From contig JBGVNW010000041.1 in NCBI GenBank assembly GCA_045125935.1, positions 66,199-130,198 on the forward strand: 64,000 nt of DNA, read 5' to 3'. The notes under the pieces were generated by a model that was not told where the DNA came from, made no database searches, and was given only the letters and a program-made list of their open reading frames with translations. This stretch comes from Bacilli bacterium (GTDB lineage Bacteria; Bacillota_I; Bacilli_A; RF39; UBA660). The position numbers were made by a program, and so were the translations under genes. The first letter of the stretch is position 1. Each line of letters starts with the position of its first letter. Below are positions 17,837-60,020 of the stretch, piece by piece.

Positions 17837-18946
17837 ATGAATACTGAAAAATTAAATAATTTGGCCAAAACAATAGTAAATTATTCGCTTCATTTAAAAG
17901 AAAATAGTAAAGTATTAGTTAGCTTTACTCCTGAAGCATCTCCACTAGTAGAAGAGTTAGTAAAAGAAGCTCAAGCAGTAAAAGCTATTATGATTTTAGA
18001 CATGTATAGTCCTAAATTAAATAGTTTATTAGCAGAAAAAAATACTGATGAAAGAATTGACTTAATTAAAGAAATAAGAGAGTTTGAAGTTGCTAATTAC
18101 GATGCATTTATTTCAATAAGATATACATATAATGATTATGAAACTAAGAATGTTCCTAAAGAGATGCGTATTAAATTAGGTTTAGCAACACAAGCAGCTG
18201 ATGACATTAGAATCAATCAAAGAGACTGGGTACTATTGAATTATCCATCTCCACAAGATGCTTTTAAAGCTAAAATGACCACAACAGAATTTAATGAATT
18301 TGCTTTAGATGTAATGACTGTTGATTATGCTAAAATGTCTGCAGATATCAAGCCTCTAAAGGATTTGATGGAGAAAACAGATAAAGTAAGAATCATCTCC
18401 CCTGGTACAGACTTAACTTTCTCAATTAAAGGACTACCAGCAGTACCTTGTACCGGAGATAAAAATATTCCTGATGGAGAACTTTACTCTGCCCCAGTAA
18501 AGGATAGTGTAAATGGAACTATTACTTATAATACTCCATGTCCATATAATGGAAATGTTTTCCACCATGTTTCATTGACTTTTGAAAATGGTAAGATAAT
18601 AAAGGCAACATGTGATGAAGATGATGATAAATTAAATGAAATATTTGATACAGATGAAGGTGCTAGATATGTTGGAGAGTTTTCTTTAGGATTCAATCCT
18701 AAAATTTTATATCCAATGGGCGATATCTTATATGATGAGAAAATTTTAGGAAGTCTACATTTTACACCAGGAAGATGTTATGCAGATTGTGACAATGGTA
18801 ATAGATCAAGTATTCACTGGGACATGGTTCTAATCCAAAGAGAAGACTTTGGTGGAGGAGAAATCTATTTTGATGATGTCCTAATTCGTAAAGATGGTAA
18901 ATTCGTTATAGATGAATTAAAAGTATTAAACTACGAACAAAAATAA
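17837..18946 (+). CDS. M29-family aminopeptidase (PepS/AmpS-like)
   Basis: 369 aa. NLAKTIVNYSL.., GDKNIPDGELYSAP, YVGEFSLGFNP and SIHWDMV blocks typical of thermophilic-metalloprotease M29 aminopeptidases. Confidence 0.8.
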   Translation: MNTEKLNNLAKTIVNYSLHLKENSKVLVSFTPEASPLVEELVKEAQAVKAIMILDMYSPKLNSLLAEKNTDERIDLIKEIREFEVANYDAFISIRYTYNDYETKNVPKEMRIKLGLATQAADDIRINQRDWVLLNYPSPQDAFKAKMTTTEFNEFALDVMTVDYAKMSADIKPLKDLMEKTDKVRIISPGTDLTFSIKGLPAVPCTGDKNIPDGELYSAPVKDSVNGTITYNTPCPYNGNVFHHVSLTFENGKIIKATCDEDDDKLNEIFDTDEGARYVGEFSLGFNPKILYPMGDILYDEKILGSLHFTPGRCYADCDNGNRSSIHWDMVLIQREDFGGGEIYFDDVLIRKDGKFVIDELKVLNYEQK

Positions 18947-18974: not shown

Positions 18975-19015
18975 AAATTAAAGATATATTATAAAAAAAT
19001 TGTATTATATATATA

Positions 19016-19260
19016 GGAACATTTAATAGTTAGGTGGAACCAAACTTCAAGAGAAGGGAGGTGATTATATGAATAAAAAAGATACTCTTATCTTTTTTCA
19101 AATAATAATTATCTACCTTTTAATATTATTACTATTTATAGTCTTAATATAAAAGAAAAGCCTAACTAAAATTTCTTTTAGTTAGGTAACCAATCATGGC
19201 AACACCTAACCAAGAAATATTAAGTGTTCCTATTTTATTTTATGAAGTTTCCTTCATCTA
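19016..19260 (+). repeat. type-I-toxin-like module, copy 1 of a 322-bp tandem duplication
   Basis: Near-identical to 19338-19582 over the 5' UTR and ORF, and more diverged in the 3' UTR loops. Confidence 0.9.
19069..19152 (+). CDS. 27-aa hydrophobic peptide (candidate type I toxin)
   Basis: MNKKDTLIFFQIIIIYLLILLLFIVLI*. SD GGGAGGTG lies 7 nt upstream. Confidence 0.5.
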   Translation: MNKKDTLIFFQIIIIYLLILLLFIVLI

Positions 19261-19294: not shown

Positions 19295-19337
19295 TTATAT
19301 TAAGGGAAAAACATAAATTATGCGTATCATATATATG

Positions 19338-19582
19338 GGAACATTTAATAGTTAGGTGGAACCAAACTTCAAGAGAAGGGAGGTGATTATATGAATAAAA
19401 AAGATACACTTATCTTTTTTCAAATAATAATTATCTACCTTTTAATATTATTACTATTCATAGTCTTAATATAAAAGAAAAGCCTAACTAAAATTTTATT
19501 CTAGTTAGGCAACCACCAAAGGTAACACCTAACAGGAAAAAATTAAGTGTTCCTATTTTTATTTTATGCAAGTTTCCTTGAC
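19338..19582 (+). repeat. type-I-toxin-like module, copy 2
   Basis: Second unit of the 322-bp duplication. Confidence 0.9.
19391..19474 (+). CDS. 27-aa hydrophobic peptide (candidate type I toxin), identical peptide
   Basis: Same 27-aa product as 19069-19152, with two synonymous differences. Confidence 0.5.
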   Translation: MNKKDTLIFFQIIIIYLLILLLFIVLI

Positions 19583-19646: not shown

Positions 19647-19675
19647 TTGACTTTTAGTACCGTCTACGGTATAAT
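19647..19675 (+). promoter_or_regulatory. sigmaA-type promoter of the HTH-pseudoFic/kinase-array operon
   Basis: TTGACT (19647-19652)-17 nt-TATAAT (19670-19675). SD GAGGTGG and ATG 19696 follow. Confidence 0.7.
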
Positions 19676-19695: not shown

Positions 19696-20595
19696 ATGGA
19701 CTTTATGACTACAAAAGAGGCTACAGAAAAGTGGAAAATAAGTGAAAGACGTATTAGAAAATTATTAAAAGACGGAAGAATTATCGGAGCAATTAAAGTT
19801 GGAAATAGTTGGAGCATCCCAACAAATGCCACTAAGCCTATTGATAAACGTAGTATCAAATATGAAGATAAAAAAATAATTATAAATCTTAGTCAAATAT
19901 TTTTTGCTAAAGTAGATAATTTAAAAGACCAAATTAAGAAAAACGCAAAATATGCTGATGAACAATTTCTAATTGAGTGGATTTACAATGATAGCAAATT
20001 AGAAAGAAATACATTAACAAAAGATGAAATAAAAATAGTCATAAATAATATTACCGTAGGTGGAAAATCAATAGAAGAGCACCTTGAAATAATTAATTAT
20101 AAAAATGCTATTAAATACTTAATTAATTCTGTTGATAAAAACATTAAAATAACTGAAAATGAGATAAAAACCATTCATCACATAGTAAGTCAAAATATTG
20201 ATAATGAAAATACAAATACATATAGAACAGAACAAGAAAATAACGATATAGATCCTACATTAATTCCAGAAATAATGTTAAAGTTAATTTCTAATTATAA
20301 TGAGAAAACATCACATGTCATAATAAAAGCTGTTATCTTACATAGTGAATTAATTAAGCTCTCACCATTTAAGGATAATAACTTAAAGACCGCTTTACTT
20401 TTAATGAACTTAATTTTTATGAATAATGGCTACCAACCAATAATTATAAAAGAAGAGTATAAATCAAATTATTTATCACAACTAAAAAATTCTCAAATAA
20501 CAGGCGATTATACTAAGTTGATAAAATTAATTTTAAAAATAGAAGAACAGTGCTTAGAAGATGAGATAAACAAAATGGAGGTTGGTGATAAATAA
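19696..20595 (+). CDS. HTH (excisionase/MerR-like) + Fic-fold protein with degenerate active-site motif
   Basis: N-terminal MTTKEATEKWKISERRIRKLLKDGRIIGAIKVGNSWSIP. Fic-core landmarks SKLERNTLTKDEI, EEHLEIINYKNA, IKTIHHIV and ILHSELIKL. The motif position reads SPFKDNNLKTAL (20362-20397) where HxFx(D/E)GNGRxxR is expected. Confidence 0.75.
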   Translation: MDFMTTKEATEKWKISERRIRKLLKDGRIIGAIKVGNSWSIPTNATKPIDKRSIKYEDKKIIINLSQIFFAKVDNLKDQIKKNAKYADEQFLIEWIYNDSKLERNTLTKDEIKIVINNITVGGKSIEEHLEIINYKNAIKYLINSVDKNIKITENEIKTIHHIVSQNIDNENTNTYRTEQENNDIDPTLIPEIMLKLISNYNEKTSHVIIKAVILHSELIKLSPFKDNNLKTALLLMNLIFMNNGYQPIIIKEEYKSNYLSQLKNSQITGDYTKLIKLILKIEEQCLEDEINKMEVGDK

Positions 20596-21347
20596 TGCGA
20601 CTAATGCCAAACATAAGTCTGACAGAAAAGCAAGTTACATCACTTCTTGAAAATAATAGATTTGACTTTGGTGGTGAAGCTATAATCTGTCGCAATGAAA
20701 ATCCCAATACTTTATATAAAATCTTTGTTTCACAGGATGCGAAAGAACCAATAGCGATGACAAAAAATAAAGAGATAAAAATAGCATTGCTTCATCAATT
20801 AGAACTTCCAAATAGTACCATACCACTTAGTACCATAAGTATGGATGGTGTACTAGTGGGATATGAAATGACAAATGCACGTGGTTATAAACCATTATTT
20901 ATACCAGATTTGACAAGGGATTCAACAATTGAAGCACTGAAAAAAGCCAAAACAACACTAGAATATTTTGCTTACAAGGATGTGACATATGGTGATGTCA
21001 AAAATGATAATTTATTAATAAATCCCCAAACTGGTGAAATTATTTTCTGCGACATGGACAATGTACGTATTGGTTCAAGAGAAATAGATGTTGCAGGATA
21101 TGAATTACAGTATTTTAAGCAGTGTTATGGAACAATAGATGAAAAATCAGATGCTTATATGCATAATTTATTAACACTAGAAATGTTAAATTATCGCTAC
21201 GTCGAGTACGTGCAAGATATCATTGAAATGATGAAAACTGGAGTAAAACCACAAGGTTATGAAGAAAAAGCTGAATATACACTAAAAAGTATGCTTAATC
21301 CCAGAGATTTTGATGGTAAATATATAATTCAATATGTCAAAAGATAG
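20595..21347 (+). CDS. minimal protein-kinase-like paralog, array member 1 of 9
   Basis: GGEAIIC, LYKIF, KNKEIK, VGYEM, VTYGDVKNDNLLIN, FCDMDN, DAYMHN, GKYIIQYVKR. The start overlaps the upstream stop (TAATG). Confidence 0.8.
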   Translation: MRLMPNISLTEKQVTSLLENNRFDFGGEAIICRNENPNTLYKIFVSQDAKEPIAMTKNKEIKIALLHQLELPNSTIPLSTISMDGVLVGYEMTNARGYKPLFIPDLTRDSTIEALKKAKTTLEYFAYKDVTYGDVKNDNLLINPQTGEIIFCDMDNVRIGSREIDVAGYELQYFKQCYGTIDEKSDAYMHNLLTLEMLNYRYVEYVQDIIEMMKTGVKPQGYEEKAEYTLKSMLNPRDFDGKYIIQYVKR

Positions 21348-21357
21348 GAGTAAAATT

Positions 21358-22140
21358 ATGAAAAGATTACCAAATATAGAAATAGACCCAAGATGTTTAA
21401 ATAGATTATTTATGAGTCAATTAACAAGTGGTGGAGAAGCTATCGTTTGTCGAAGCTTTCAACCTAATACCTTATTTAAAATCTGTGCTGAGGCAAGTGT
21501 TCAAAGGTATTGTGATTCCTTCGGAGTACCATTTCGCCTAGATTTAATTGAAATGTCTGATAACAAGTTCGAAAAAATTAAAAGATTATATGAAATGCAA
21601 TTAGAACATAGCGTAAAGCCAGTAAGTACACTAAGCATGAATGGTCGATTAATAGGGTATGAAATGACTTATGATAAAGATGACAAGTCATTACATAATA
21701 GCCAATTATCTCATGAAGATTTAATTAACATCCTAGAACAAAGCAGAAACATCTTAGAATATTATGCTCAAAATGATATAACATATGGTGATGTTAATGC
21801 TTTTAACGTTTTAGTAAATAGCGGTACTAAACAAGTAAAATTTTGTGATGTTGATAACATGCGTATTGGAACACTTCCTATCGATGTAAAAGAAAAGAAT
21901 TCCACAATATACGATTTACTTGGTGGTAAGGAGGCCTATCTTGATGCTTACATGCATAATATAATGACTCTTTATGAATTTGAAAGTGATAAATTTGGCT
22001 TTTTATTTAAACCAGTAAGTGAAATTGTAAAAGAAGATTATTCACAGTATTTAACAGAAGAATCAAGAGAAATATTAACTAGTATGGAAGAACCAAAAAC
22101 ATTTAATGGTGAATATATAATTCAATATGTAAAAAAATAA
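21358..22140 (+). CDS. minimal protein-kinase-like paralog, array member 2
   Basis: Start at MKRLPNIEI behind TAGGAG. GGEAIVC, LFKIC, DNKFEK, IGYEM, ITYGDVNAFNVLVN, FCDVDN, DAYMHN, NGEYIIQYVKK. Confidence 0.8.
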   Translation: MKRLPNIEIDPRCLNRLFMSQLTSGGEAIVCRSFQPNTLFKICAEASVQRYCDSFGVPFRLDLIEMSDNKFEKIKRLYEMQLEHSVKPVSTLSMNGRLIGYEMTYDKDDKSLHNSQLSHEDLINILEQSRNILEYYAQNDITYGDVNAFNVLVNSGTKQVKFCDVDNMRIGTLPIDVKEKNSTIYDLLGGKEAYLDAYMHNIMTLYEFESDKFGFLFKPVSEIVKEDYSQYLTEESREILTSMEEPKTFNGEYIIQYVKK

Positions 22141-22149
22141 GGTGATAAA

Positions 22150-22872
22150 ATGCAAAGGATTCCCAACATAAAACTGACACAAGATGATTTTGAAAAATTA
22201 TTAGAGCATAAGATAATAGGTTCTGGTAGTGAGGCAACAATTTGTCGAACTGAAAAACAAAATACCGTATACAAAATTTTTTGTATTGGTAAGAAAGTAT
22301 TTCCAATGCCAGATAATAAAGTAAGAAAAATAGATAAATTATATCAAATGTCGTTAGAGCATATAACTAGCCCAATAAGTACAATAAGCTTAGATGGGAC
22401 ATTAATTGGCTATGAAATGATTTATGATTCAGAAGATAAAACCTTTAATCCTTTCGCACTAAGTAATTCAGAAGTAATTCATTTTTTAAAAGGCACTAAG
22501 GATATTTTAGAACAGCTAGCAAGTAAAGACATAACATATGGTGATGTGGCTGGTCGTAATATTTTGATTAATCATCGTACAGGAACAATAAAATTTTGTG
22601 ATATTGATAACATGCGCGTTGGAGAATATCCAATAGATCTTATCGGTAACACATTACAAAAATACACCAAAGTTCGAGGTGTTGATGCTGCAACAGATGC
22701 CTATATGCACAGTATAATGACATTAAATTCTTTCGACTTGGATGAAGATGAATGTAGTCAAGAAGAATTTGCTTGGTATTTTACGAGAGAAGGTAGAAAA
22801 ATTCTTCATCAAATAAGAGAAAAAACAGCATACAATGGTGAATACATAGTTCAATATGTTAAAAAGAAATAG
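22150..22872 (+). CDS. minimal protein-kinase-like paralog, array member 3
   Basis: GSEATIC, VYKIF, DNKVRK, IGYEM, ITYGDVAGRNILIN, FCDIDN, DAYMHS, NGEYIVQYVKKK. Confidence 0.8.
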   Translation: MQRIPNIKLTQDDFEKLLEHKIIGSGSEATICRTEKQNTVYKIFCIGKKVFPMPDNKVRKIDKLYQMSLEHITSPISTISLDGTLIGYEMIYDSEDKTFNPFALSNSEVIHFLKGTKDILEQLASKDITYGDVAGRNILINHRTGTIKFCDIDNMRVGEYPIDLIGNTLQKYTKVRGVDAATDAYMHSIMTLNSFDLDEDECSQEEFAWYFTREGRKILHQIREKTAYNGEYIVQYVKKK

Positions 22873-22880
22873 GTGATAAT

Positions 22881-23612
22881 ATGACACGACTTAAAAATAT
22901 TGAGTTTTCTGAAAATGAAGTTCATAGATTAATAAAAAAATCTTTCTTCAGCAGTGGTGGAGAAGCAGTAATTTGTCGTACTAATAATCCTAATACACTA
23001 TATAAAATTTTTATCAAAGGAACTATGTATAACACTATAGCGATGAGCGAAAATAAATTAAGAAAACTAGAAAGAATTCATGAAATGGAACTAAAGGGTT
23101 GTGTAAGACCTATACAAACAATATCAAGTCAAGGAAAACTAATTGGTTATGAAATGACATACGATCCAAATGATATAAGATTCTTTCCTGGTTATTTCAA
23201 ACGTAGTGAAGTAGTAAGAAAACTGAAAGAAACAAGAAATATCTTACAATACTTTGCGGACCACGATATAACATATGGCGATATTGCCTTGCGAAATATT
23301 TTATTTAACAAGCATACCGGTGAAGTGAAATTCTGTGATATGGACAATGTAAAAATAGGCGAATATCCAATGGATATAATTCCCACTAGATTAAGAGATT
23401 ATCATGAAATTTGTGGTATTGATGATAAAACAGATGCTTACATGCATAATCTCCTTACACTAGATGCTTTCGGTTTAAGACTATATTACTCTGATAGAGA
23501 TGACATAAGTGAAGAATTTAAAGGAAAAGCCATACCAATAGTTGAATCAATGAAAGAGCCAGAAAACTTTCAAGGTGAATATATAATCCAATATATAAAG
23601 AAAAAAGAGTGA
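22881..23612 (+). CDS. minimal protein-kinase-like paralog, array member 4
   Basis: GGEAVIC, LYKIF, ENKLRK, IGYEM, ITYGDIALRNILFN, FCDMDN, DAYMHN, QGEYIIQYIKKK. Confidence 0.8.
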   Translation: MTRLKNIEFSENEVHRLIKKSFFSSGGEAVICRTNNPNTLYKIFIKGTMYNTIAMSENKLRKLERIHEMELKGCVRPIQTISSQGKLIGYEMTYDPNDIRFFPGYFKRSEVVRKLKETRNILQYFADHDITYGDIALRNILFNKHTGEVKFCDMDNVKIGEYPMDIIPTRLRDYHEICGIDDKTDAYMHNLLTLDAFGLRLYYSDRDDISEEFKGKAIPIVESMKEPENFQGEYIIQYIKKKE

Positions 23613-23616
23613 TAAA

Positions 23617-24381
23617 ATGAAAAATTTACCAAACATTAATTTTACATTAAAAGAAATAGAAGAAATAGTTAAAAGAGATCACATTGTAGGTGGAGAAGCA
23701 GGTATCTATGAAACGGGAAACCAATTAACTTTATATAAAATATTTTGTAAGGCTGAAGAAATACGAAATTCAAATTCATATTCTTTTAACTCAAGTCCCA
23801 TAACAACGATGAGCTATAACAAACTACGAAAACTAGAAAAATTATATCAAATGCAACTAGAACATAGTGTAAGACCGATAAGCACTATTAGTGTAGCTGG
23901 CGAATTGGTAGGCTATGAAATGACAAGAGATCCTAAAGATCAAGTCATAACTTCCGTAAATCTATCAAGGTCTGAATTGATTCACTATCTAGAACAAACC
24001 AAAAATATTTTAGAATATTTTTCTCATCACGATATTATTTATGGCGATGTTGCAAAAAGAAACATTTTAATCAATCACAAAACAAGAACAGCAAAGTTTT
24101 GTGATATGGATAATATAAAGCTTGGAAGTTATGGAATAGATGTAAAATCATGGGAATTAATTTCTTATACAATAGAAAGAGACGGTCTTGATCAAAAAAC
24201 AGATGCCTACATGCACAGTTTAATGACTTTAACCGGTTTAGATATTGACATGGATTTATGTGTACTACAAAATGAATACTTCCATAAACATTTTACTCCA
24301 CCAGCATTTGATGTTATCGAAGGAATCGGAAATCCCAAAAACTACAATGGCGAATACTTAGTACAATACGTAAAAAAATAA
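23617..24381 (+). CDS. minimal protein-kinase-like paralog, array member 5
   Basis: GGEAGIY, LYKIF, YNKLRK, VGYEM, IIYGDVAKRNILIN, FCDMDN, DAYMHS, NGEYLVQYVKK. Confidence 0.8.
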   Translation: MKNLPNINFTLKEIEEIVKRDHIVGGEAGIYETGNQLTLYKIFCKAEEIRNSNSYSFNSSPITTMSYNKLRKLEKLYQMQLEHSVRPISTISVAGELVGYEMTRDPKDQVITSVNLSRSELIHYLEQTKNILEYFSHHDIIYGDVAKRNILINHKTRTAKFCDMDNIKLGSYGIDVKSWELISYTIERDGLDQKTDAYMHSLMTLTGLDIDMDLCVLQNEYFHKHFTPPAFDVIEGIGNPKNYNGEYLVQYVKK

Positions 24382-24399
24382 AAAGAAAGAGGTGAAATT

Positions 24400-25146
24400 A
24401 TGTTATCAATTCCCAATATAATACTTACAAAAGAAGAATATCAACAGTTAATTAAGAACGAACAAATGCGTGGAGGTGAAGCTATAATCTCACCAAGCGG
24501 CAATCCAAATACAAGATATAAACTATTTATGAATCAAGCACATTATGAAAGCCCGATGAATGAAAATAAAACAGTCAAAGTAATTGAACTATATAGAAGA
24601 AATATTCCTTATTTGGTACAACCTCTAAGTACAATCAGTTACAATGGTAAAATGGTTGGTTATGAAATGACTTTTGATAGACATGATAAAAGCCTTGAAT
24701 CACTATCACAGCTATCAAGAAAACAATTAATAGAAATTTTAAAGAAGTCAAAAGAAATTCTTGAACATCTAGCCAGTCAAGACATAACATATGGCGATGT
24801 AACCGCAGACAATATCTTAGTAAATATAAAAACAGGAAGAGTAAGTTTTTGTGATATAGATAATATGCGTGTTGGTGCAAATCCAATCGATATAAAAGGT
24901 TTTAGTTTATCTCGTTATTATGGAAGAGTTGGCCAAATAGATGAAAAAGCCGATGCCTACATGCACAATCTATTAACAATAAAAAAATTACATGCTCCAA
25001 GTAAATATGAATCAGAAATTATAAAAGACTTAGAAAAAGGAATCTTTCCTACAAAGTTTAAACAAACAGCCAGACCAATATTCGAAAGTATGGCAAATCC
25101 AGAAAACTTTACAGGTGAATATGTAATTCAACACGTAAAAAGATAA
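24400..25146 (+). CDS. minimal protein-kinase-like paralog, array member 6
   Basis: GGEAIIS, RYKLF, ENKTVK, VGYEM, ITYGDVTADNILVN, FCDIDN, DAYMHN, TGEYVIQHVKR. Confidence 0.8.
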   Translation: MLSIPNIILTKEEYQQLIKNEQMRGGEAIISPSGNPNTRYKLFMNQAHYESPMNENKTVKVIELYRRNIPYLVQPLSTISYNGKMVGYEMTFDRHDKSLESLSQLSRKQLIEILKKSKEILEHLASQDITYGDVTADNILVNIKTGRVSFCDIDNMRVGANPIDIKGFSLSRYYGRVGQIDEKADAYMHNLLTIKKLHAPSKYESEIIKDLEKGIFPTKFKQTARPIFESMANPENFTGEYVIQHVKR

Positions 25147-25149
25147 AGA

Positions 25150-25179
25150 TTGAAGAAATAGCAAAAATATGATATAATA
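25150..25179 (+). promoter_or_regulatory. internal promoter between array members 6 and 7
   Basis: TTGAAG (25150-25155)-18 nt-TATAAT (25174-25179) with TG at 25170-25171 (extended -10). This is the only gap over 20 nt in the array. Confidence 0.5.
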
Positions 25180-25204
25180 TGCTCACTAATGGGGGATGGT
25201 TAGT

Positions 25205-25963
25205 ATGAAAAGAATGCCTAATATTACTTTTTCAAGGGAAAGTTTAGAGGAGATAACGTATACAGAAAGATTTAGTAAAGGTGGAGAAGCAATTATCTGC
25301 CTAAGTAATAAGCCAAATTCACTATACAAAATTTTTATTAATCCATATACTGGCGAAATAATTGACATGTCAGACAATAAATTTAAGAAAATAGCAACCA
25401 TTTACCAAATGGGACTTGACTATAGTGTAAGACCATTAAGTACCATAAGTATGGACGGAAGACTAGTTGGTTATGAAATGAGTTGTAATCCATTACATGT
25501 TTCTATGAACGAAATATCATTAACTCCTCAACAATTAATTGAAATTTTAAAACGTACCAAAGATGCTTTAGAATATTTTGAATCAAAAGATATAACCTAT
25601 GGCGATGTCAAAAATAACAATATTTTAATAAATAGACATACAGGACAAATAGAATTTTGTGATATGGACAATATCAGATTAGGAGAAAATCCAATAGACC
25701 TAATGGGAAAAGATTTAAGACAATATGTTGCAAAAAATGGAGTTCTTGCTAACGCTGATGCTTATATGCATAATTTATTTGCACTAAAAGAACTAGGCTT
25801 TCCAACTAAATATACAACTAGCGAAGGTGTTATTATGACCCTTGAAAAAGGTGAATACCCAACTGAATTTGAAAAATTTGCTCATCCAATTTTTGAGGGT
25901 ATGGTAAACCCAGAATCATTTAATGGTGAGTATGCCATTCAATATATTAAAAAGGGACGATAA
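25205..25963 (+). CDS. minimal protein-kinase-like paralog, array member 7
   Basis: Start at MKRMPNITF behind GGGGGA. GGEAIIC, LYKIF, DNKFKK, VGYEM, ITYGDVKNNNILIN, FCDMDN, DAYMHN, NGEYAIQYIKK. Confidence 0.8.
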   Translation: MKRMPNITFSRESLEEITYTERFSKGGEAIICLSNKPNSLYKIFINPYTGEIIDMSDNKFKKIATIYQMGLDYSVRPLSTISMDGRLVGYEMSCNPLHVSMNEISLTPQQLIEILKRTKDALEYFESKDITYGDVKNNNILINRHTGQIEFCDMDNIRLGENPIDLMGKDLRQYVAKNGVLANADAYMHNLFALKELGFPTKYTTSEGVIMTLEKGEYPTEFEKFAHPIFEGMVNPESFNGEYAIQYIKKGR

Positions 25964-25964
25964 C

Positions 25965-26684
25965 ATGAGAAGAATTACAGATATCAAATTAACAGAAAAA
26001 GAATTTGCAAATATTAAGCAAAGATTTTGCTTTGACTATGGCAGTGAAGCAGATATTTATACAACCGACAAACCAAACACTTTATATAAAATATTCACTG
26101 GTCGTCACGGTATGTCAGAAAATAAATTACGAAAGATTGAAAGACTGTATCAAATGTCACTAGAGCATAGTGTAAAGCCACTTAGCACCATAAGTTGTAA
26201 CGGAAAATTAGTTGGTTATGAAATGACCTATGATAGAAAAGACCAAGAGTTTAGATATGTAATAAATAAATTAGATCGTGCTCAAAAGATTTATTGGTTA
26301 GAGCAAACAAGAGATATTTTAGAATATTTTGCATCACAAGATATAACATTTGGCGATGTTGCCAGTAGAAATATTCTGATCAATCCCCAGAGTGGTGAGG
26401 CTAAATTTTGTGATATAGATAATATTCGTTTAGGTGAATACCCGGTTGATATAACATCAGAATCTTTAAGTCAATACTGTAGGGTTCGTGGCGTAGATGA
26501 AGAAATAGATGCCTTTGGGCATAATCTAATGACTGTGCATGCCTTATATATATCCCCTTGGGGCGACTTACCAGCATTGAGTCAAATTAAAATGAGAGGT
26601 ATGAAAGTTTATCGTAGTTTACAAAAACCAGAAAAATTTAATGGCGAGTATATAATTCAATATGTAAAAAAGATAGGAAGATAA
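25965..26684 (+). CDS. minimal protein-kinase-like paralog, array member 8
   Basis: Start at MRRITDIKL, 1 nt after the upstream stop. GSEADIY, LYKIF, ENKLRK, VGYEM, ITFGDVASRNILIN, FCDIDN, DAFGHN, NGEYIIQYVKK. Confidence 0.8.
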   Translation: MRRITDIKLTEKEFANIKQRFCFDYGSEADIYTTDKPNTLYKIFTGRHGMSENKLRKIERLYQMSLEHSVKPLSTISCNGKLVGYEMTYDRKDQEFRYVINKLDRAQKIYWLEQTRDILEYFASQDITFGDVASRNILINPQSGEAKFCDIDNIRLGEYPVDITSESLSQYCRVRGVDEEIDAFGHNLMTVHALYISPWGDLPALSQIKMRGMKVYRSLQKPEKFNGEYIIQYVKKIGR

Positions 26685-26685
26685 T

Positions 26686-27438
26686 ATGTCAACAAAAAGA
26701 ATACCAAATGTTGAGTTAACAATAGATGAATTTTTTGCTCTAGAAGACGAAGATAAATTTGCTCAGGGCGGAGAAGCTATTATTTTAAAAACAGAAAGGC
26801 CTAATACTCTTTATAAGTTCTTTAGAGATCAAAATGGCAACTTTATTGATATGCCTGATAATAAATTTAGAAAAATCATAGCATTATATAACTTAAACTT
26901 AAATTATTCTGTAAAACCATTAAGTACAGTAAGTGTTAATGGTCATTTAGTAGGTTATGAAATGACATATAATCCCCAAAGTATTCAGTTTAAGAAAGCT
27001 GGATTAGATCGCGCTAATAAAATAGAAGTTTTAAAAAGAACTAAAGAGATTTTAGAATACTTCGCAACTCAAGATATAACATATGGCGATGTCAAAAGTA
27101 ATAATATTTTAATTGATAGAGTAACAGGAGAAATAGAATTTTGTGATATGGATAATATTCGTATTGGAACATATCCTATGGATCTGGTAGTAGAATATGT
27201 ACAACCCTTTGAAAAATGTGGTAAAATTGAACTGTGTGATGCCTATATTCATAATTTGATGACATTACAACAATTAGGATTTCCTAATAATTATCCAACA
27301 TTTAAAGAGGTTGCAAGAACACTTGCAAGAGAAATATATCCAACAGGATTTTCCAAAGAAGCAAAGGAAGTTTTTGAAAGTATGATAATTCCAAGAAAAT
27401 TCAATGGAGAATATGTAATTCAATACGTAAAAAAATAG
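26686..27438 (+). CDS. minimal protein-kinase-like paralog, array member 9
   Basis: GGEAIIL, LYKFF, DNKFRK, VGYEM, ITYGDVKSNNILID, FCDMDN, DAYIHN, NGEYVIQYVKK. Confidence 0.8.
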   Translation: MSTKRIPNVELTIDEFFALEDEDKFAQGGEAIILKTERPNTLYKFFRDQNGNFIDMPDNKFRKIIALYNLNLNYSVKPLSTVSVNGHLVGYEMTYNPQSIQFKKAGLDRANKIEVLKRTKEILEYFATQDITYGDVKSNNILIDRVTGEIEFCDMDNIRIGTYPMDLVVEYVQPFEKCGKIELCDAYIHNLMTLQQLGFPNNYPTFKEVARTLAREIYPTGFSKEAKEVFESMIIPRKFNGEYVIQYVKK

Positions 27439-27451
27439 AAGAGGTGATGAT

Positions 27452-28171
27452 ATGGAACGTTTACAAAAAGTAATCACACAAGCAGGAATTGCATCAAGAA
27501 GAAAAGCAGAAGAATTAATTACACAAGGAAAAGTAAAAGTAAATGGTCAAACAGTTACAGAATTAGGTACTAAAGTATCAGACAAAGACCATATTGAAGT
27601 TGAAAATAAACTAATAGAAAAAGAATTAAAAGAATATTATTTACTAAATAAACCTCGTGGTGTAGTAACAACAACATCAGATGATAAAAATAGAAAAACA
27701 GTTATTGATTTAATCCCAACCAGCGCTAGAATATATCCGGTAGGAAGATTAGATTATGATACAACAGGTGCCTTATTACTAACAAATGATGGTGATTTTG
27801 CCAATATTTTAATGCATCCAAAACATAAAATAGAAAAAGTTTATATGGCAAAAGTAAAAGGAATCATAAAAGGTGAACAAATAAATAAACTAAAAGATGG
27901 TGTTGAAATAGAACCAGGAGTAGTGGTAAGGGGAACAAGAGTAAAACTAAAGAAAACTGATCCTAAATCAAATACAAGTAGGGTTCAAATTACTATTACT
28001 GAAGGAAAAAATCATCAAGTAAAGAAAATGTTTGAAGCAGTTGACTTTGAAGTAATAAAACTAAAAAGAGAAAAAATTGCCTTCTTCGATTTAAAAGATC
28101 TTCAATCAGGAGAATATCGTAAACTAACACCAAAAGAAGTAAGTAAAGTATTTAGTTTAGAAACAAAATAA
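27452..28171 (+). CDS. rluB: 23S rRNA pseudouridine synthase, RsuA/RluB family
   Basis: S4 domain (RLQKVITQAGIASRRKAEELI) and catalytic GRLDYDTTGALLLTNDG. 239 aa. Confidence 0.85.
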   Translation: MERLQKVITQAGIASRRKAEELITQGKVKVNGQTVTELGTKVSDKDHIEVENKLIEKELKEYYLLNKPRGVVTTTSDDKNRKTVIDLIPTSARIYPVGRLDYDTTGALLLTNDGDFANILMHPKHKIEKVYMAKVKGIIKGEQINKLKDGVEIEPGVVVRGTRVKLKKTDPKSNTSRVQITITEGKNHQVKKMFEAVDFEVIKLKREKIAFFDLKDLQSGEYRKLTPKEVSKVFSLETK

Positions 28172-28194: not shown

Positions 28195-29244
28195 ATGTCA
28201 AAATTAAGTGTAATAGTTCCTGTATATAATACTGAAAAGTATTTAGGAAAATGTATTGAAAGTATTTTAGGTCAAACCCAAAAAGATACTGAAATAATTT
28301 TAATAGATGATTCATCAACTGATAAAAGTTTGGATATAATGAATTCCTATCAAGAAAAAAATCCACGAAGCATAAAAATTCTTCAAACAAAACAAAATAG
28401 TGGACCAGCCACTGCTAGAAATTTAGGTTTAAATATCGCAACAGGAGAATATATAGGCTTTGTTGATAGTGATGACTTTATTACACCAACAATGTATGAG
28501 GAAATGATAACTGTCTGTGAAGAAACTTCCTCCGATATGGCAAGAACAAATCAAAGAGTATTAATTCTAGGTATTGATAAAGGCTTTTTCAAAAAGAATA
28601 AAGACACTACTTTTAAAGTAATTAATGCAAAAACTGATGATAGGTTCATTATAGCTGAGCCACCATGTGCTACTAATAAATTATTTAAAAGAGAATTAAT
28701 TGGCGATGAAAAATTTCCTGAAGGAATAAAATGGGAAGATTATCCATTTACAGTTCCACTAACAATAAAAGCAAATCAAATAGCGTCTATCCCAGAAAGA
28801 CATTATACTTACAATATGCATCGAAGTAATACAACATTTACTGACGCAAGAGTCTTAAATAGTCATCTTTTGGATATTTTTACTTGCTCGGACATAATTG
28901 GTGAAAAATGTATAACTGAAGATATGAATTCTAACTTAAGATACTTGCTAGAATATACACAAATTTATCATTGTGTATTTAGATTAAAAGAAATTGTGGG
29001 TTCAAGTATGCCACTAGATGAAAAAAGAGAATTATTAACTCTTACATCTGCACTTATAAAAACAAAGTATGGTCCTTGGCAAGAACATGAATTATATCAT
29101 GAACAAAAAGACAATAGATTACTTCATAGAATAAGAATGAATATAGTCGAAAGTCTCTTAGAACCAGACCTTGACTTACCTAAAGATGAAGAACAATTAA
29201 AACAAAAAATTAAAGTAAAACTAGATAAGTATTCAAAAAAATAA
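28195..29244 (+). CDS. family-2 glycosyltransferase
   Basis: SVIVPVYNTEKYLGKCIESIL, IDDSSTD, VDSDD. Confidence 0.8.
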   Translation: MSKLSVIVPVYNTEKYLGKCIESILGQTQKDTEIILIDDSSTDKSLDIMNSYQEKNPRSIKILQTKQNSGPATARNLGLNIATGEYIGFVDSDDFITPTMYEEMITVCEETSSDMARTNQRVLILGIDKGFFKKNKDTTFKVINAKTDDRFIIAEPPCATNKLFKRELIGDEKFPEGIKWEDYPFTVPLTIKANQIASIPERHYTYNMHRSNTTFTDARVLNSHLLDIFTCSDIIGEKCITEDMNSNLRYLLEYTQIYHCVFRLKEIVGSSMPLDEKRELLTLTSALIKTKYGPWQEHELYHEQKDNRLLHRIRMNIVESLLEPDLDLPKDEEQLKQKIKVKLDKYSKK

Positions 29245-57386: not shown

Positions 57387-58235
57387 ATGTCAGAAAGAGA
57401 ATTAGATTCAAGTATGATTGATTATGTTGAGAATGAAACACCTAAAAATTATATAAAACAGTTACAATGGGATATGGCTATTGGTTTACAAGAAGTAGAT
57501 GATTTAAAACCTTCTAAATATTTAGAAAAGTTATTACAAGAAAATGTAACTGGTGAAAAAACTATTTATGAAGTGGAACAAGAGTTAAAACAATATTATG
57601 TCGATAAAAATACAAATGATGAAAAGATACATGATGAATATGAATGTGATCTAGTATCGACAAGAATTGTTCAATTATTAGAAGAGGATAAGTTTGAATT
57701 ATCTGTTGATTATATAAAATATGTTCATGAGTATTTATTTAGAGATGTGTATGAATTTGCAGGTGAATTTAGAAAAGTAGATTTTTCTAAATATGAAAGA
57801 ATTTTAAATAATGATTCAGTTGCGTATGGTGATTGCAGAACATTAGAAGAATCATTAGAATATGATCTTGTTTTGGAGAAAAATAGAAATTATGATGAAA
57901 TGAACATTGTAGAAGTTATTAATAATATAACTAATTTTTCTTCAAGTATATGGCAAATTCATCCTTTTAGAGAAGGTAATACTAGAACAACAGCTTTATT
58001 TATTGAAAAATATTTAATTTCTCTTGGATATAATGTAGATAATACTATGTTTAAAGAAAAATCAGTTTACTATAGAAATGCAATGGTAAGAAGTAATTAC
58101 TATAATAATTATTTAAATATAAAACAAGATAATAGTTATTTAATTAAATTTTATGAAAATTTATTGTTAGGGAAGAATAATGATTTACATTCACGAGACT
58201 TAATTGTAAAAGAATTGTTTGATGAGAGTAAATAA
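57387..58235 (+). CDS. Fic-domain protein with variant motif HPFREGNTRTTA
   Basis: Motif at 57960-57995. It deviates from HxFx(D/E)GNGRxxR at two positions (G to T, last R to A). 282 aa. Confidence 0.8.
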   Translation: MSERELDSSMIDYVENETPKNYIKQLQWDMAIGLQEVDDLKPSKYLEKLLQENVTGEKTIYEVEQELKQYYVDKNTNDEKIHDEYECDLVSTRIVQLLEEDKFELSVDYIKYVHEYLFRDVYEFAGEFRKVDFSKYERILNNDSVAYGDCRTLEESLEYDLVLEKNRNYDEMNIVEVINNITNFSSSIWQIHPFREGNTRTTALFIEKYLISLGYNVDNTMFKEKSVYYRNAMVRSNYYNNYLNIKQDNSYLIKFYENLLLGKNNDLHSRDLIVKELFDESK

Positions 58236-58270: not shown

Positions 58271-58358
58271 TTTGATGAAAAGTAATAGTTTTATTTTAAA
58301 CAAGTAATATGTAATTAATTGTTATCTGTGGTAAACTATATGTGAGGTGATTATTGTA

Positions 58359-59195
58359 ATGTTTAAACCTAAGGTTAGAGGCTCTTTTTCAGATAGAACT
58401 GGAAATGATAAAATAAATATGACTATTCAAAAAGACGAGCTTGATGAACGAACTAGAAATACTATTGTAAATTTATTTGATTATATATTAAATGTATGTG
58501 AAAATCGTAATAGAGAAGACGTTTGCTATTCATATATTTATAAACATATTTTTTGTGTTACGAAAGATGAGATTCCTTATCATTATAGTGAGAAGAGAAA
58601 ATACATTGTTGATGGAATAAAAAGCGATTGGGAATATTATGATATATTTTCGTTTTTAGAGTCATTGTTAGAGTGGTTTTGTAATAGTGATTTTACTGAT
58701 AGTACTTATGACATATTTAATGAAATGTTTGAAAAAGAATGTGTTGGTTATAGATTTATTGAAGGCAAGATAACTGATATAATTGACGATGTTGAGATTT
58801 CTGAAGTGGAAGATGCTTTAGATAATAAATTTTCTGCATGCAAGAAAAGTATAACGAAAGCATTTAATCTACTTTATGACAGAGAGAATCCGGATTATCC
58901 TAATTCTGTTAAAGAATCAATTTCTGCTATAGAAGCTATGTGTAATATTATTTTAGGAAAGGATAATGCAACATTGGGTGATGCATTAAAGCAGTTAGAA
59001 AAGCAAGGTGTTAAGATTCATGGAGCAATGAAGACTGCTTTTTCCTCTCTTTATGGATATACATCTGACAAGAGTGGTATTAGACATAATAGTGGTATAG
59101 ATGAAAATACTACATTTGAAGAAGCAAAATATATGTTGGTTTCTTGTTCTGCTTTTTTAAATTATTTGATGCAGGTTTATAGTGATGTAAAATAA
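58359..59195 (+). CDS. AbiJ-NTD4-like N-terminus + Abi_C/HEPN-like C-terminus (abortive-infection-type protein)
   Basis: ATG 58359 behind GAGGTGA. N-terminal FKPKVRGSFSDRTGNDKINMTIQKDELDERTRNTIVN. C-terminal ..SISAIEAMCNIILG...LYGYTSDKSGIRHNSG.. The family call is made from memory of the motif pattern. Confidence 0.55.
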   Translation: MFKPKVRGSFSDRTGNDKINMTIQKDELDERTRNTIVNLFDYILNVCENRNREDVCYSYIYKHIFCVTKDEIPYHYSEKRKYIVDGIKSDWEYYDIFSFLESLLEWFCNSDFTDSTYDIFNEMFEKECVGYRFIEGKITDIIDDVEISEVEDALDNKFSACKKSITKAFNLLYDRENPDYPNSVKESISAIEAMCNIILGKDNATLGDALKQLEKQGVKIHGAMKTAFSSLYGYTSDKSGIRHNSGIDENTTFEEAKYMLVSCSAFLNYLMQVYSDVK

Positions 59196-59306: not shown

Positions 59307-60020
59307 TTATTTTTTTAAGTACTGAACAATATATTCATTATTAAAGTCTTTTGGATCTTTCATTGACTTTATTGTTTTAAGTGCTGGTCTTTTAAAGTGC
59401 TGTCTTAATTCTCTTCTTGATGTCCAGTAAGTATCTATTCCATATTCTTTCATAGTCATTAGATTATGCATGTACGGATGAAGATTCCTATCTATTGGAC
59501 GTGATGTATTATAGTCAATAACATAACTTGGTAATAAGTCCATTGGAAGTTCATCTAAGGCAATATTATCCATATCACAAAATTCTATTCTACCAGTATT
59601 CCTATCAAATAAAATATTACGAGCTGCTACATCACCATATATGATTCCTAGAGAAGAAAAATATTCTAGGATTTCTTTAGTTTTATTTAAGAAATATAAT
59701 TTTTCTTCTGGTGGTAAGAAATAAATATCAGCTTTAGATAAGTCTATGTCAGAAGTCATTTCGTAACCAACTATGATGTCATCAAGACTAATAGTACAAA
59801 GAGGTTGAACACTATGGTCAACTTTCATGTCATATAATCTAGATATTTTTTTGACTTTATTTTCTGGCATAGCAACAGGAGTTGAACAATGGTAAAAAAA
59901 TTTATATACAGAGTAGGGAGTATCCGCTTCGCAGATTGTTGCTTCTCCACCAAAAGATAATTTTTGGTAGTCAACAAGTCTATAAAACTCATCTCTTGTG
60001 ATTGGTTTATTAGGAATCAT
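59307..60020 (-). CDS. minimal protein-kinase-like paralog, tenth (solitary) copy
   Basis: GGEATIC, VYKFF, ENKVKK, VGYEM, IIYGDVAARNILFD, FCDMDN, HPYMHN, NNEYIVQYLKK. Own promoter on the minus strand (TGCTATAAT, about 60041-60049) and SD AAGGCGGTGA. Confidence 0.8.
   Translation of the reverse strand: MIPNKPITRDEFYRLVDYQKLSFGGEATICEADTPYSVYKFFYHCSTPVAMPENKVKKISRLYDMKVDHSVQPLCTISLDDIIVGYEMTSDIDLSKADIYFLPPEEKLYFLNKTKEILEYFSSLGIIYGDVAARNILFDRNTGRIEFCDMDNIALDELPMDLLPSYVIDYNTSRPIDRNLHPYMHNLMTMKEYGIDTYWTSRRELRQHFKRPALKTIKSMKDPKDFNNEYIVQYLKK

What the first reader, a model, noticed from the sequence alone, without database searches (positions are those of the whole stretch)
20595..27438. Conserved catalytic core with four hypervariable segments across the paralogs
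Aligning the ten copies by eye shows near-invariant catalytic blocks, while variation is concentrated in discrete segments. (i) Between YKIF and (E/D)NK there are 0 to about 20 extra residues, for example AEASVQRYCDSFGVPFRLDLIE in member 2 and KAEEIRNSNSYSFNSSPITT in member 5; member 8 has the shortest version. (ii) About 15-20 residues after GYEM vary. (iii) About 20 residues after FCDxDN vary, at the activation-segment-equivalent position. (iv) About 45 residues between DAYMHN and NGEY vary. Overall identity between copies looks roughly 35-55% (eyeball estimate, not computed). The DNA is clearly diverged, so these are old duplicates kept under selection for catalysis while surface or substrate regions diversify. 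That pattern is characteristic of recognition families in host-parasite or inter-bacterial conflict.
Basis: partly seen in the sequence, partly recalled or inferred. Interest (0 to 1): 0.65.

Follow-up and report, generated by a model that had tools for sequence, protein, structure and literature searches.

The report
Ten diverged compact protein-kinase paralogs
An uncultured gut bacterium carries nine back-to-back copies, plus one distant copy, of a small uncharacterised protein kinase; the copies differ mainly in four stretches, but those are the stretches that vary in any kinase family and they are under purifying selection, so this is not an arms-race signature.

Summary
Nine tandem genes (20595-27438, + strand) and a tenth at 59307-60020 (- strand) encode 237-260 aa paralogs that are 36-50% identical. 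Divergence concentrates in four segments (column identity 0.09-0.26, against 0.55-0.71 in the blocks). AlphaFold2 (pLDDT 95) and Foldseek place them in the eukaryotic-like protein kinase fold, and the ATP-binding and catalytic residues are invariant. The family is unnamed, falls below Pfam's Pkinase cut-off, and was found only in uncultured gut Bacilli genomes.

The conflict or hypervariable reading is not supported:
- The copies are old. They are colinear and orthologous across species and always sit between an M29 aminopeptidase gene and rluB.
- The variable segments are 44-58% identical between orthologs but 6-21% between paralogs.
- Their dN/dS is 0.22-0.28 (core 0.04-0.14), with a maximum of 0.40.
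- The neighbouring histidine kinase shows equally clustered divergence.
- The segments fall at the classic variable gaps between kinase subdomains.

The most likely reading is stably subfunctionalised kinases with different substrates. An overlooked feature supports this: the catalytic loop differs by orthogroup (D-x-K, D-x-A-x-R, or neither). I could not compute 3D clustering of the segments because no model coordinates were available.

The parts
20595..21347 (+). m1, kinase paralog (250 aa), catalytic loop GDVKNDN. Its ATG overlaps the stop codon of the upstream Fic-like gene (TAATG).
   Evidence: ortholog L013_1035 at 75%
21358..22140 (+). m2, kinase paralog (260 aa from the family-consistent start; the ORF opens at 21334). 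It has the longest V1 (22 aa). Catalytic loop GDVNAFN.
   Evidence: AF2 model pLDDT 92.5 with V1 ordered
22150..22872 (+). m3, kinase paralog (240 aa), catalytic loop GDVAGRN
22881..23612 (+). m4, kinase paralog (243 aa), catalytic loop GDIALRN
23617..24381 (+). m5, kinase paralog (254 aa), 21-aa V1, catalytic loop GDVAKRN
24400..25146 (+). m6, kinase paralog (248 aa), catalytic loop GDVTADN
25205..25963 (+). m7, kinase paralog (252 aa from the family-consistent start; the ORF opens at 25196), catalytic loop GDVKNNN. Best Pfam Pkinase score of the ten (30.1 bits against a cut-off of 31.7).
   Evidence: (AF2 pLDDT 95.4, pTM 0.91)
25337..25366 (+). V1 in m7 (INPYTGEIID): the loop between strand beta3 (Lys42) and helix alphaC
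25484..25528 (+). V2 in m7 (CNPLHVSMNEISLTP): follows the GYEM hinge at the alphaD position. The model shows no helix here.
25703..25756 (+). V3 in m7 (MGKDLRQYVAKNGVLANA): a helix between the conserved PID and helix alphaF, at the P+1/APE/alphaEF position
25787..25918 (+). V4 in m7 (44 aa): two helices between alphaF and the conserved C-terminal FNGEYxIQYxKK, at the alphaG/alphaH position
25965..26684 (+). m8, kinase paralog (239 aa from the family-consistent start; the ORF opens at 25923). It has the shortest V1 (5 aa). Catalytic loop GDVASRN. No close ortholog was found (best 51%).
26686..27438 (+). m9, kinase paralog (250 aa), catalytic loop GDVKSNN
   Evidence: ortholog L013_5626 at 84%
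59307..60020 (-). m10, the tenth paralog (237 aa), outside the finding's coordinates. Catalytic loop GDVAARN. This is the singleton type, found alone in L009-L012.
   Evidence: 82% to L011_9992
19696..20595 (+). HTH + Fic-fold gene directly upstream of m1. The Fic motif is degenerate (SPFKDNNLK; the catalytic His is lost). It is present only in the window and L013, so it is not a conserved partner of the array.
19647..19675 (+). Promoter-like site TTGACT-17-TATAAT (11 of 12 matches), 20 nt upstream of the Fic-like gene. No terminator-like site was found on the + strand from here through the GT2 gene that ends at 29244.
   Evidence: a consensus match only
27452..28171 (+). RluB-type pseudouridine synthase gene, 13 nt after m9. 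It is the conserved 3' flank of the array in every related genome.
17837..18946 (+). M29 aminopeptidase gene, the conserved 5' flank of the array in most related loci (absent from L001 and L003)

Best explanation
The ten genes encode a lineage-restricted, uncharacterised family of compact (about 250 aa), soluble, single-domain kinases with the eukaryotic-like protein kinase fold.

Mechanism. ATP would be held by the GGEA loop and the invariant beta3 Lys42. Phosphotransfer would use the catalytic-loop Asp134 and Asn139 and the metal-binding Asp153 of FCDxDN. The catalytic loop is Y-G-D, with no Arg before the Asp, and the activation loop is short. This suggests that no activation-loop phosphorylation is needed.

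Evolution. The duplications are ancient. The copies have been kept as distinct orthogroups in a colinear array at one chromosomal site, with gains, losses and a few apparent pseudogenes (2 to 9 copies per genome).

The four variable segments are the usual low-constraint gaps between kinase subdomains: the beta3-alphaC loop, the hinge/alphaD region, the P+1/alphaEF region and the alphaG/alphaH region. Each segment is fixed within its orthogroup and under purifying selection. Together with orthogroup-specific catalytic-loop residues (K at +2; A-x-R at +2 to +4; or N/T), this most likely gives each paralog its own substrate or partner specificity. That is stable subfunctionalisation, not ongoing diversification.

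The genes are probably co-transcribed with rluB.

Shown: the fold, residue conservation, orthology, synteny and purifying selection. Inferred: enzymatic activity, protein substrates, different specificities and the operon structure.
For: Fold:
- AF2 pLDDT 95.4 (m7) and 92.5 (m2).
- Foldseek probability 1.0, TM 0.60-0.65 to the IRAK4, Src, Lck and ASK1 kinase domains.
- PDB profile hit to the NIK catalytic loop at 4e-5.
- hhalign to PKA pairs Y132/D134/N139/D153 with Y164/D166/N171/D184.
- 102 of 121 family members hit Pfam Pkinase at E<=0.01.

Catalytic residues are invariant in 121-157 sequences.

Orthology and colinearity.

Fixed synteny (HK - M29 peptidase - array - rluB).

Selection: core dN/dS 0.12, variable segments 0.24, per segment 0.22-0.28, maximum window 0.40.

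Variable segments are 44-58% identical between orthologs against 6-21% between paralogs.

Catalytic-loop class is conserved within each orthogroup.

Variable segments are ordered in the models (pLDDT blocks mostly above 83; minimum 76, in V4 of m2).

Gaps between genes are 1-58 nt, and no + strand terminator-like site was found.
Against: - No biochemical evidence exists.
- No family member reaches Pfam's gathering score.
- A conserved alphaC Glu and an APE motif are not evident, and alphaC instead carries invariant Lys59 and Lys62. The active-site geometry may therefore differ from that of canonical kinases.
- m2-type and m6-type copies have neither the +2 Lys nor the +4 Arg and could be weak or inactive.
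- dS is about 1 between the closest available orthologs. The dN/dS values are therefore rough, and only pairwise segment averages were computed. Positive selection at a few sites, or a burst right after each duplication, would be missed.
- The V-to-core distance ratio is somewhat higher between paralogs (about 3.4) than between orthologs (about 2.3) (my arithmetic).
- Spatial clustering of the segments was not computed.
Confidence: 0.6

Rival explanations
1. One reading: a recognition family in host-parasite or inter-bacterial conflict. The kinases act as a bank of sensors or effectors, and their surface segments diversify under positive selection to track changing targets such as phage proteins or competitors' proteins.
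For: - Copy number varies from 2 to 9 between species, with lineage-specific duplicates and two apparent pseudogenes.
- Fic-type defence-candidate genes lie next to kinase genes twice in the window: PDC-S04/SoFic-like at 19696, and PDC-S72 plus PDC-S32 beside m10.
- There are weak PADLOC hits to the defence kinases PD-T4-6, mad6 and MkoA.
- The V-to-core divergence ratio is modestly higher among paralogs than among orthologs.
Against: - dN/dS in every variable segment is 0.22-0.28, and no window exceeds 0.40.
- The variable segments are conserved within orthogroups.
- The array is colinear and syntenic across species, between housekeeping genes.
- The Fic and PDC neighbours are absent from the orthologous loci of the other species examined; only L013 also has the Fic-like gene.
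- The PADLOC hits cover only the generic catalytic loop, at E 3e-5 to 0.07.
- No relatives were found in IMG/VR, INPHARED phages or PLSDB plasmids.
- There are no near-identical DNA tracts or cassette-like repeats.
- An ordinary neighbouring protein shows the same clustering.
Confidence: 0.1
2. Plain rate heterogeneity with no functional meaning. The four segments are simply loosely constrained loops and peripheral helices that drift, and the paralogs are largely redundant.
For: - The segments sit at the known variable gaps between kinase subdomains.
- They also evolve about 2-2.5 times faster than the core between orthologs.
- The control protein shows the same degree of clustering.
Against: - Redundant copies should not persist as nine distinct, colinear orthogroups across species.
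- dN/dS of 0.22-0.28 in the segments still indicates clear constraint.
- The catalytic-loop classes are fixed per orthogroup.
- The segments are confidently structured in the models.
Confidence: 0.15
3. These are small-molecule kinases (sugar, lipid, antibiotic or metabolite kinases of the kinase-like superfamily, as in the APH, choline-kinase or Kdo-kinase families). The variable segments would then shape different small-substrate pockets.
For: - The size is compact (about 250 aa), the C-lobe is trimmed, and there is no APE motif.
- FCDxDN has a second invariant acidic residue.
- There are weak Pfam hits to RIO1 (E 0.11) and YrbL (E 0.04-0.08).
- A GT2 glycosyltransferase gene lies two genes downstream.
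Against: - The best sequence and fold matches are all protein kinases.
- No hit to the APH, choline-kinase or Kdo-kinase Pfam families was listed at E<=1.
- An alphaF-type Asp (DAYMHN) and alphaG/alphaH-like helices are present.
- GT2 is separated from the array by rluB and was detected beside the array in only two of the eight syntenic loci.
Confidence: 0.15

Closest known systems
Hanks-type (eukaryotic-like) Ser/Thr protein kinases of bacteria, Pfam PF00069. The stand-alone cytosolic type, such as B. subtilis PrkD/YbdM, is cited from my own knowledge.
   Same: - Bilobal kinase fold.
- The beta3 Lys, the catalytic-loop D-x4-N and the DFG-position Asp are aligned to PKA and NIK.
- There is an alphaF Asp.
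- The protein is a single soluble domain.
   Different: - Scores fall below Pfam's gathering cut-off (best 30.1 against 31.7 bits).
- The G-loop is GGEA with an invariant Glu.
- The catalytic loop is Y-G-D, not H/Y-R-D.
- FCDxDN replaces DFG.
- There is no APE motif and no evident alphaC Glu.
- The C-lobe is shortened.
- There are up to nine tandem copies at one locus.
Eukaryotic tyrosine-kinase catalytic-loop signature HRDLAARN, as opposed to HRDLKxxN in Ser/Thr kinases (textbook Hanks classification, from my own knowledge)
   Same: - Five orthogroups (m3, m4, m5, m8, m10) have D-V-[A/E/S]-x-R-N with the same spacing as D-L-A-A-R-N.
- Three orthogroups (m1, m7, m9) have D-V-K-x-x-N, like Ser/Thr kinases.
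   Different: - There is no evidence on which residue is phosphorylated.
- The rest of the tyrosine-kinase signature was not examined.
- m2 and m6 fit neither class.
Anti-phage defence kinases in PADLOC (PD-T4-6, mad6, MkoA, STK_OB)
   Same: The kinase catalytic loop is shared, with weak HMM hits at E 3e-5 to 0.07.
   Different: - The hits cover only about 50 residues around the catalytic loop.
- Those proteins are larger or have several domains.
- This array is at a fixed syntenic site rather than in a mobile island, and it is absent from phages and plasmids.
Minimal kinases with a trimmed C-lobe (RIO, Bud32, Kdo kinase/WaaP, YrbL)
   Same: The size is about 240-270 aa, the substrate-binding lobe is reduced, and the protein stands alone.
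   Different: - Only marginal Pfam hits were found (RIO1 E 0.11; YrbL E 0.04-0.08).
- The top 50 Foldseek PDB matches are all canonical protein kinases.
- Helices after alphaF are retained.

Membership tests
Protein kinase domain (Pfam PF00069, Hanks-type) | Score at or above Pfam's gathering threshold (31.7 bits) | tested here: not met
   The best window score is 30.1 bits (m7). 102 of 121 family members match at E<=0.01, and in my scans of the ten window copies none reached the cut-off. The database's precomputed table lists PF00069 for some members. A distant 234-aa relative (P0248) has a Pkinase hit on record.
Protein kinase domain (Pfam PF00069, Hanks-type) | Bilobal kinase fold | tested here: met
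   AF2 pLDDT 95.4, pTM 0.91. Foldseek probability 1.0, TM 0.60-0.65 to IRAK4, Src and ASK1.
Protein kinase domain (Pfam PF00069, Hanks-type) | Invariant beta3 Lys, catalytic-loop Asp and Asn, and metal-binding Asp at the DFG position | tested here: met
   K42, N139 and D153 are invariant, and D134 is at least 90% conserved, in 121 sequences. They align to PKA D166/N171/D184 and to the NIK catalytic loop.
Protein kinase domain (Pfam PF00069, Hanks-type) | Gly-rich loop GxGxxG, alphaC Glu, and APE motif | tested here: not met
   The loop is G-G-E-A with an invariant Glu. alphaC carries invariant K59 and K62 and no conserved mid-helix Glu. No conserved APE is present; P-I-D lies 12 residues after D153.
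Tyrosine-kinase class of the kinase fold | Catalytic loop D-L-A-A-R-N (Ala at +2, Arg at +4) | tested here: inconclusive
   The spacing is matched in five orthogroups. The remaining signature features and the phospho-acceptor residue were not tested.
Diversifying recognition family (conflict-driven) | dN/dS above 1, or at least near-neutral, in the variable segments | tested here: not met
   Nei-Gojobori (NG86) pairwise estimates on 8 ortholog pairs give V1 0.23, V2 0.22, V3 0.28 and V4 0.23, with a maximum 10-column window of 0.40. Caveat: dS is about 1 and no site models were run.
Diversifying recognition family (conflict-driven) | Variable segments differ between close relatives (rapid turnover) | tested here: not met
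   The segments are 44-58% identical between orthologs whose overall identity is 62-76%, against 6-21% between paralogs.
Diversifying recognition family (conflict-driven) | Variable segments form one exposed surface around the binding site | not testable with these tools
   No model coordinates were exposed to scripts. Only a secondary-structure and motif mapping was possible. The segments are ordered (pLDDT blocks mostly above 83; minimum 76).
Known anti-phage defence kinases (PADLOC PD-T4-6, mad6, MkoA) | Full-length match to the system's HMM and the system's partner genes | tested here: not met
   Only matches of about 30-110 residues around the catalytic loop, E 3e-5 to 0.07. No conserved partner gene was found.

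The most novel reading that the evidence does not exclude
The array is a chromosomally fixed repertoire of immune or conflict kinases. Each paralog's alphaD, P+1 and alphaG surfaces would recognise a different invader or competitor protein. Selection would have acted in bursts at duplication and would now be invisible at dS of about 1. The Fic-type defence-candidate genes repeatedly inserted beside kinase genes would be functional partners.

A milder version is that the orthogroup-fixed switch between D-x-K and D-x-A-x-R catalytic loops marks Ser/Thr-specific and Tyr-specific enzymes within a single bacterial kinase family.
Probability: 0.08. Interest if true: 0.75.

Novelty: new variant of a known kind. 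Interest (0 to 1): 0.38.

Why it matters
It should not be read as a conflict signature.

What remains of interest is the object itself:
- It is an unnamed, compact kinase family with unusual motif variants.
- It is confined to uncultured low-GC gut Bacilli.
- It has expanded to ten ancient, separately conserved paralogs in one genome.
- It shows catalytic-loop classes that mirror the Ser/Thr versus Tyr split of eukaryotic kinases.

If the paralogs prove to have distinct specificities, the array would be a compact natural system for studying how kinase substrate specificity is encoded by a few surface segments. It would also hint at extensive phospho-signalling in a poorly known gut lineage.

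Tried and rejected
- I looked for a tenth copy inside the interval. There is none; it is at 59307-60020.
- NCBIfam, PHROGs and PADLOC gave no family assignment for the kinases.
- I tested whether the upstream Fic-like gene is a conserved partner. It is absent from L001-L012 and present only in L013, and its active-site motif is degenerate. I rejected it as a core component.
- I tested for synteny around m10. It is limited, and the PDC-S72/PDC-S32 pair is an insertion specific to the window.
- I looked for gene conversion, cassette or phase-variation signatures (near-identical repeats, short tandem repeats). None were found.
- I checked for an alternative genetic code (AGG reassignment or UGA readthrough). 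Codon usage looks standard.
- I searched viral, phage and plasmid collections. There were no relatives.
- Literature searches by lineage, motif strings and general terms turned up nothing on this family.
- Rfam found only one tRNA in the window.
- I tried to obtain model coordinates to compute 3D clustering. They are not available to scripts.
The mapping of V3 and V4 therefore rests on secondary structure and residue spacing.

Full report
WHAT IS THERE

The interval 20595-27438 holds nine same-strand ORFs of 240-268 aa, separated by 1-58 nt. A tblastn of these against the whole window finds one more copy at 59307-60020 on the minus strand (E 1e-41 to 1e-60). So 'ten copies' is right for the window, but only nine lie in the stated interval.

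The family's conserved N-terminus (M-x-R-x-P-N-I) puts the likely starts of m2, m7 and m8 at 21358, 25205 and 25965. This removes the apparent overlaps between genes.

CHECK OF THE OBSERVATION

A MAFFT alignment of the ten copies (A2) gives pairwise identities of 36-50%, mean 42.6%.

Column identity is strongly non-uniform:
- V1 (between YKIF and xNK): 0.09
- V2 (after GYEM): 0.21
- V3: 0.26
- V4 (between DAYMHN and NGEY): 0.18
- Five conserved blocks: 0.55-0.71

Lag-1 autocorrelation is 0.46 (z 7.5), and the variance of 15-column means has z 13.7 against column shuffles.

- The 12 residues after FCDxDN (IRxGxxPID) are fairly conserved. The variable 17-19 residues follow PID.
- Only V1 (5-22 aa) and V4 (33-44 aa) vary in length.
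- The catalytic loop itself varies by class.

The DNA is diverged. Identity is 62-77% in the best 181-nt block, with no near-identical tracts and no short tandem repeats of note.

The same statistics applied to orthologs of the flanking histidine kinase give an equal variance ratio (4.8 against 4.7) and a lag-1 autocorrelation of 0.30. The clustering is therefore real but no greater than in an ordinary protein of similar divergence.

WHAT THE PROTEINS ARE

Sequence searches:
- Pfam gives only sub-threshold Pkinase hits centred on the catalytic loop. The best is m7 at 30.1 bits against a cut-off of 31.7.
- 102 of 121 family members hit Pkinase at E<=0.01.
- A profile search of PDB sequences hits the catalytic loop of NIK at 4e-5.

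Structure:
- AlphaFold2 with a 121-sequence alignment gives a very confident model of m7 (pLDDT 95.4, pTM 0.91) and of m2 (pLDDT 92.5).
- Foldseek matches the IRAK4, Src, Lck, Fyn and ASK1 kinase domains at E about 1e-9 and TM 0.60-0.65. It also matches viral protein kinases.

Conservation and deviations:
- Invariant across 121 sequences: G26, E28, K42, K59, K62, G89, Y90, N139, F151, C152, D153, D155 and N156.
- Deviations from canonical kinases: the G-loop is GGEA; the catalytic loop is Y-G-D, so there is no Arg before the catalytic Asp; FCDxDN replaces DFG; there is no APE motif; there is no obvious alphaC Glu; and the C-lobe is short.

Distribution:
- The family is narrow and unnamed. There are 318 hits in 5.8 billion proteins, all unnamed apart from one labelled 'hypothetical protein'.
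- There are 124 representatives at E<=1e-30, and the full-length ones are about 240-270 aa.
- Among GTDB species genomes, only 12 loci were found, all in uncultured gut Bacilli MAGs from goat, water deer and human samples.
- NCBIfam and PHROGs give no assignment. PADLOC gives only weak catalytic-loop hits.
- No relative was found in IMG/VR, INPHARED phages or PLSDB plasmids.

EVOLUTIONARY STRUCTURE

In every related genome the array occupies the same site: histidine kinase, M29 aminopeptidase (not detected in two of the loci), array, then rluB. Copy number ranges from 2 to 7 in those genomes. Single m10-type copies lie elsewhere (L009-L012).

The nearest relative is a 6.4-kb Logan contig, L013. 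It carries the Fic-like gene plus seven copies that are colinear with m1-m6 and m9, at 66-84% identity. m7 and m8 have no counterpart there.

Neighbour-joining trees group each window paralog, except m8, with positional orthologs from other species (bootstrap 58-100%). The duplications therefore predate these species. There are also lineage-specific duplicates (in L002 and L003) and two disrupted copies (in L003 and L005). This is birth-and-death evolution at a modest rate.

ARE THE VARIABLE SEGMENTS HYPERVARIABLE?

They are not, on the evidence available.

- Between orthologs whose overall identity is 62-76%, the segments are 44% (V1), 50% (V2), 58% (V3) and 58% (V4) identical. Between the window's paralogs the figures are 6, 21, 20 and 17%. 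The core blocks are 72-91% and 54-71% respectively. The segments therefore carry most of the paralog-specific signal and are maintained within each orthogroup.
- Nei-Gojobori estimates pooled over eight ortholog pairs give dN/dS of 0.12 for the core and 0.24 for the variable segments.
- Per segment, dN/dS is 0.23, 0.22, 0.28 and 0.23, against 0.04-0.14 for the blocks. The highest 10-column window is 0.40.

Caveats:
- dS is about 1, which is near saturation.
- Only pairwise segment averages were computed.
- From, the V-to-core distance ratio is about 3.4 between paralogs and about 2.3 between orthologs (my arithmetic). A modest acceleration after duplication is therefore possible, although gaps counted as mismatches inflate the paralog figure.

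WHERE THE SEGMENTS LIE

These positions are inferred from the model's secondary structure and the PKA anchor.

- V1 is the beta3-alphaC loop. In m2 its 22-aa version is ordered, with a short helix (pLDDT 83-90).
- V2 follows the hinge, where alphaD lies in canonical kinases.
- V3 is a helix between PID and alphaF. The spacing from D153 to the alphaF Asp is 32 residues, against 36 in PKA, so V3 corresponds to the P+1/APE/alphaEF stretch.
- V4 comprises two helices between alphaF and the conserved C-terminus, at the alphaG/alphaH position.

These four positions are the classic low-conservation gaps between Hanks subdomains (II/III, V/VI, VIII/IX, X/XI; established knowledge). In canonical kinases, alphaD, the P+1 loop and alphaG line the substrate groove and docking surfaces. 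It is therefore reasonable that V2-V4 tune specificity.

AN OVERLOOKED DIFFERENCE

The catalytic loop differs by orthogroup, and the difference is conserved within each group:
- D-V-K-x-x-N in m1, m7 and m9. This is the Ser/Thr-kinase pattern.
- D-V-[A/E/S]-x-R-N in m3, m4, m5, m8 and m10. This has the same spacing as the tyrosine-kinase D-L-A-A-R-N.
- D-V-N-x-x-N in m2.
- D-V-T-x-D-N in m6.

This argues for functional differentiation at the active site itself.

CONTEXT

- A promoter-like site (TTGACT-17-TATAAT) lies 20 nt upstream of the Fic-like gene.
- That gene's stop codon overlaps the m1 start codon (TAATG).
- No + strand terminator-like site was found through the GT2 gene.
- Co-transcription is inferred, not shown.
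- The Fic-like protein has an N-terminal HTH and a degenerate motif (SPFKDNNLK; LPFKNNNQK in L013). It has lost the catalytic His and is absent from most orthologous loci. It is not a core partner.

VERDICT

The reading of old duplicates under purifying selection for catalysis is supported. The reading of conflict-type hypervariability is not supported.

The best explanation is a set of stably subfunctionalised, probably co-expressed, compact protein kinases with paralog-specific substrate surfaces and catalytic-loop chemistry (confidence 0.6).

The family is an undescribed, divergent variant within the protein-kinase superfamily. The flagged pattern itself is ordinary.

Noticed in passing
window 18977-19241 and 19299-19564 (small ORFs at 19069-19152 and 19391-19474): There is a tandem duplication of about 265 nt (92% identity over 198 nt) in the spacer between the aminopeptidase gene and the Fic-like gene. 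Each copy has a GGAGG ribosome-binding site and a 27-aa, very hydrophobic ORF (MNKKDTLIFFQIIIIYLLILLLFIVLI). A hairpin follows (GCCTAACTAAAA...TTTTAGTTAGGC), flanked by A/T runs on both sides. This resembles small membrane-peptide or type I toxin-like cassettes.
   Followed up: no
window 19696-20595; L013 139-1041: The HTH + Fic-fold gene upstream of the array has lost the catalytic His of the Fic motif (SPFKDNNLK; LPFKNNNQK in L013). Its stop codon overlaps the m1 start (TAATG). It matches PADLOC PDC-S04 (9e-20) and SoFic (3e-16). It is present only in the window and its closest relative.
   Followed up: partly
window 57387-58235 and 58347-59195: Two 282-aa genes next to m10 match the PADLOC defence candidates PDC-S72 (1.5e-77; Fic fold with an intact HPFREGN motif) and PDC-S32 (2.2e-87). 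They are absent beside the m10 orthologs in L009-L012, so they are an insertion. This makes Fic-type genes adjacent to kinase-family genes twice in one window.
   Followed up: partly
catalytic loops of m1-m10, e.g. window 25598-25618 in m7: The catalytic-loop class is fixed per orthogroup: D-V-K-x-x-N (m1, m7, m9), D-V-A/E/S-x-R-N (m3, m4, m5, m8, m10; tyrosine-kinase-like spacing), D-V-N (m2) and D-V-T (m6).
   Followed up: partly
all ten copies: G-loop GGEA (residues 26-29 of m7) and alphaC N-K-x-x-K (residues 58-62): The Gly-rich loop contains an invariant Glu, and helix alphaC carries two invariant Lys. No conserved alphaC Glu is present, which suggests a non-canonical arrangement around the beta3 Lys.
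   Followed up: no
L003 6817-7619; L005 5808-6590: Two array members in related MAGs are split or truncated. One has a frameshift and the other an internal deletion. They are either pseudogenes or assembly errors.
   Followed up: no
window 25150-25178: A promoter-like site with an extended -10 (TTGAAG-17-TATAAT, TG present) lies in the largest gap inside the array, between m6 and m7. It could be an internal promoter. It is a consensus match only.
   Followed up: no
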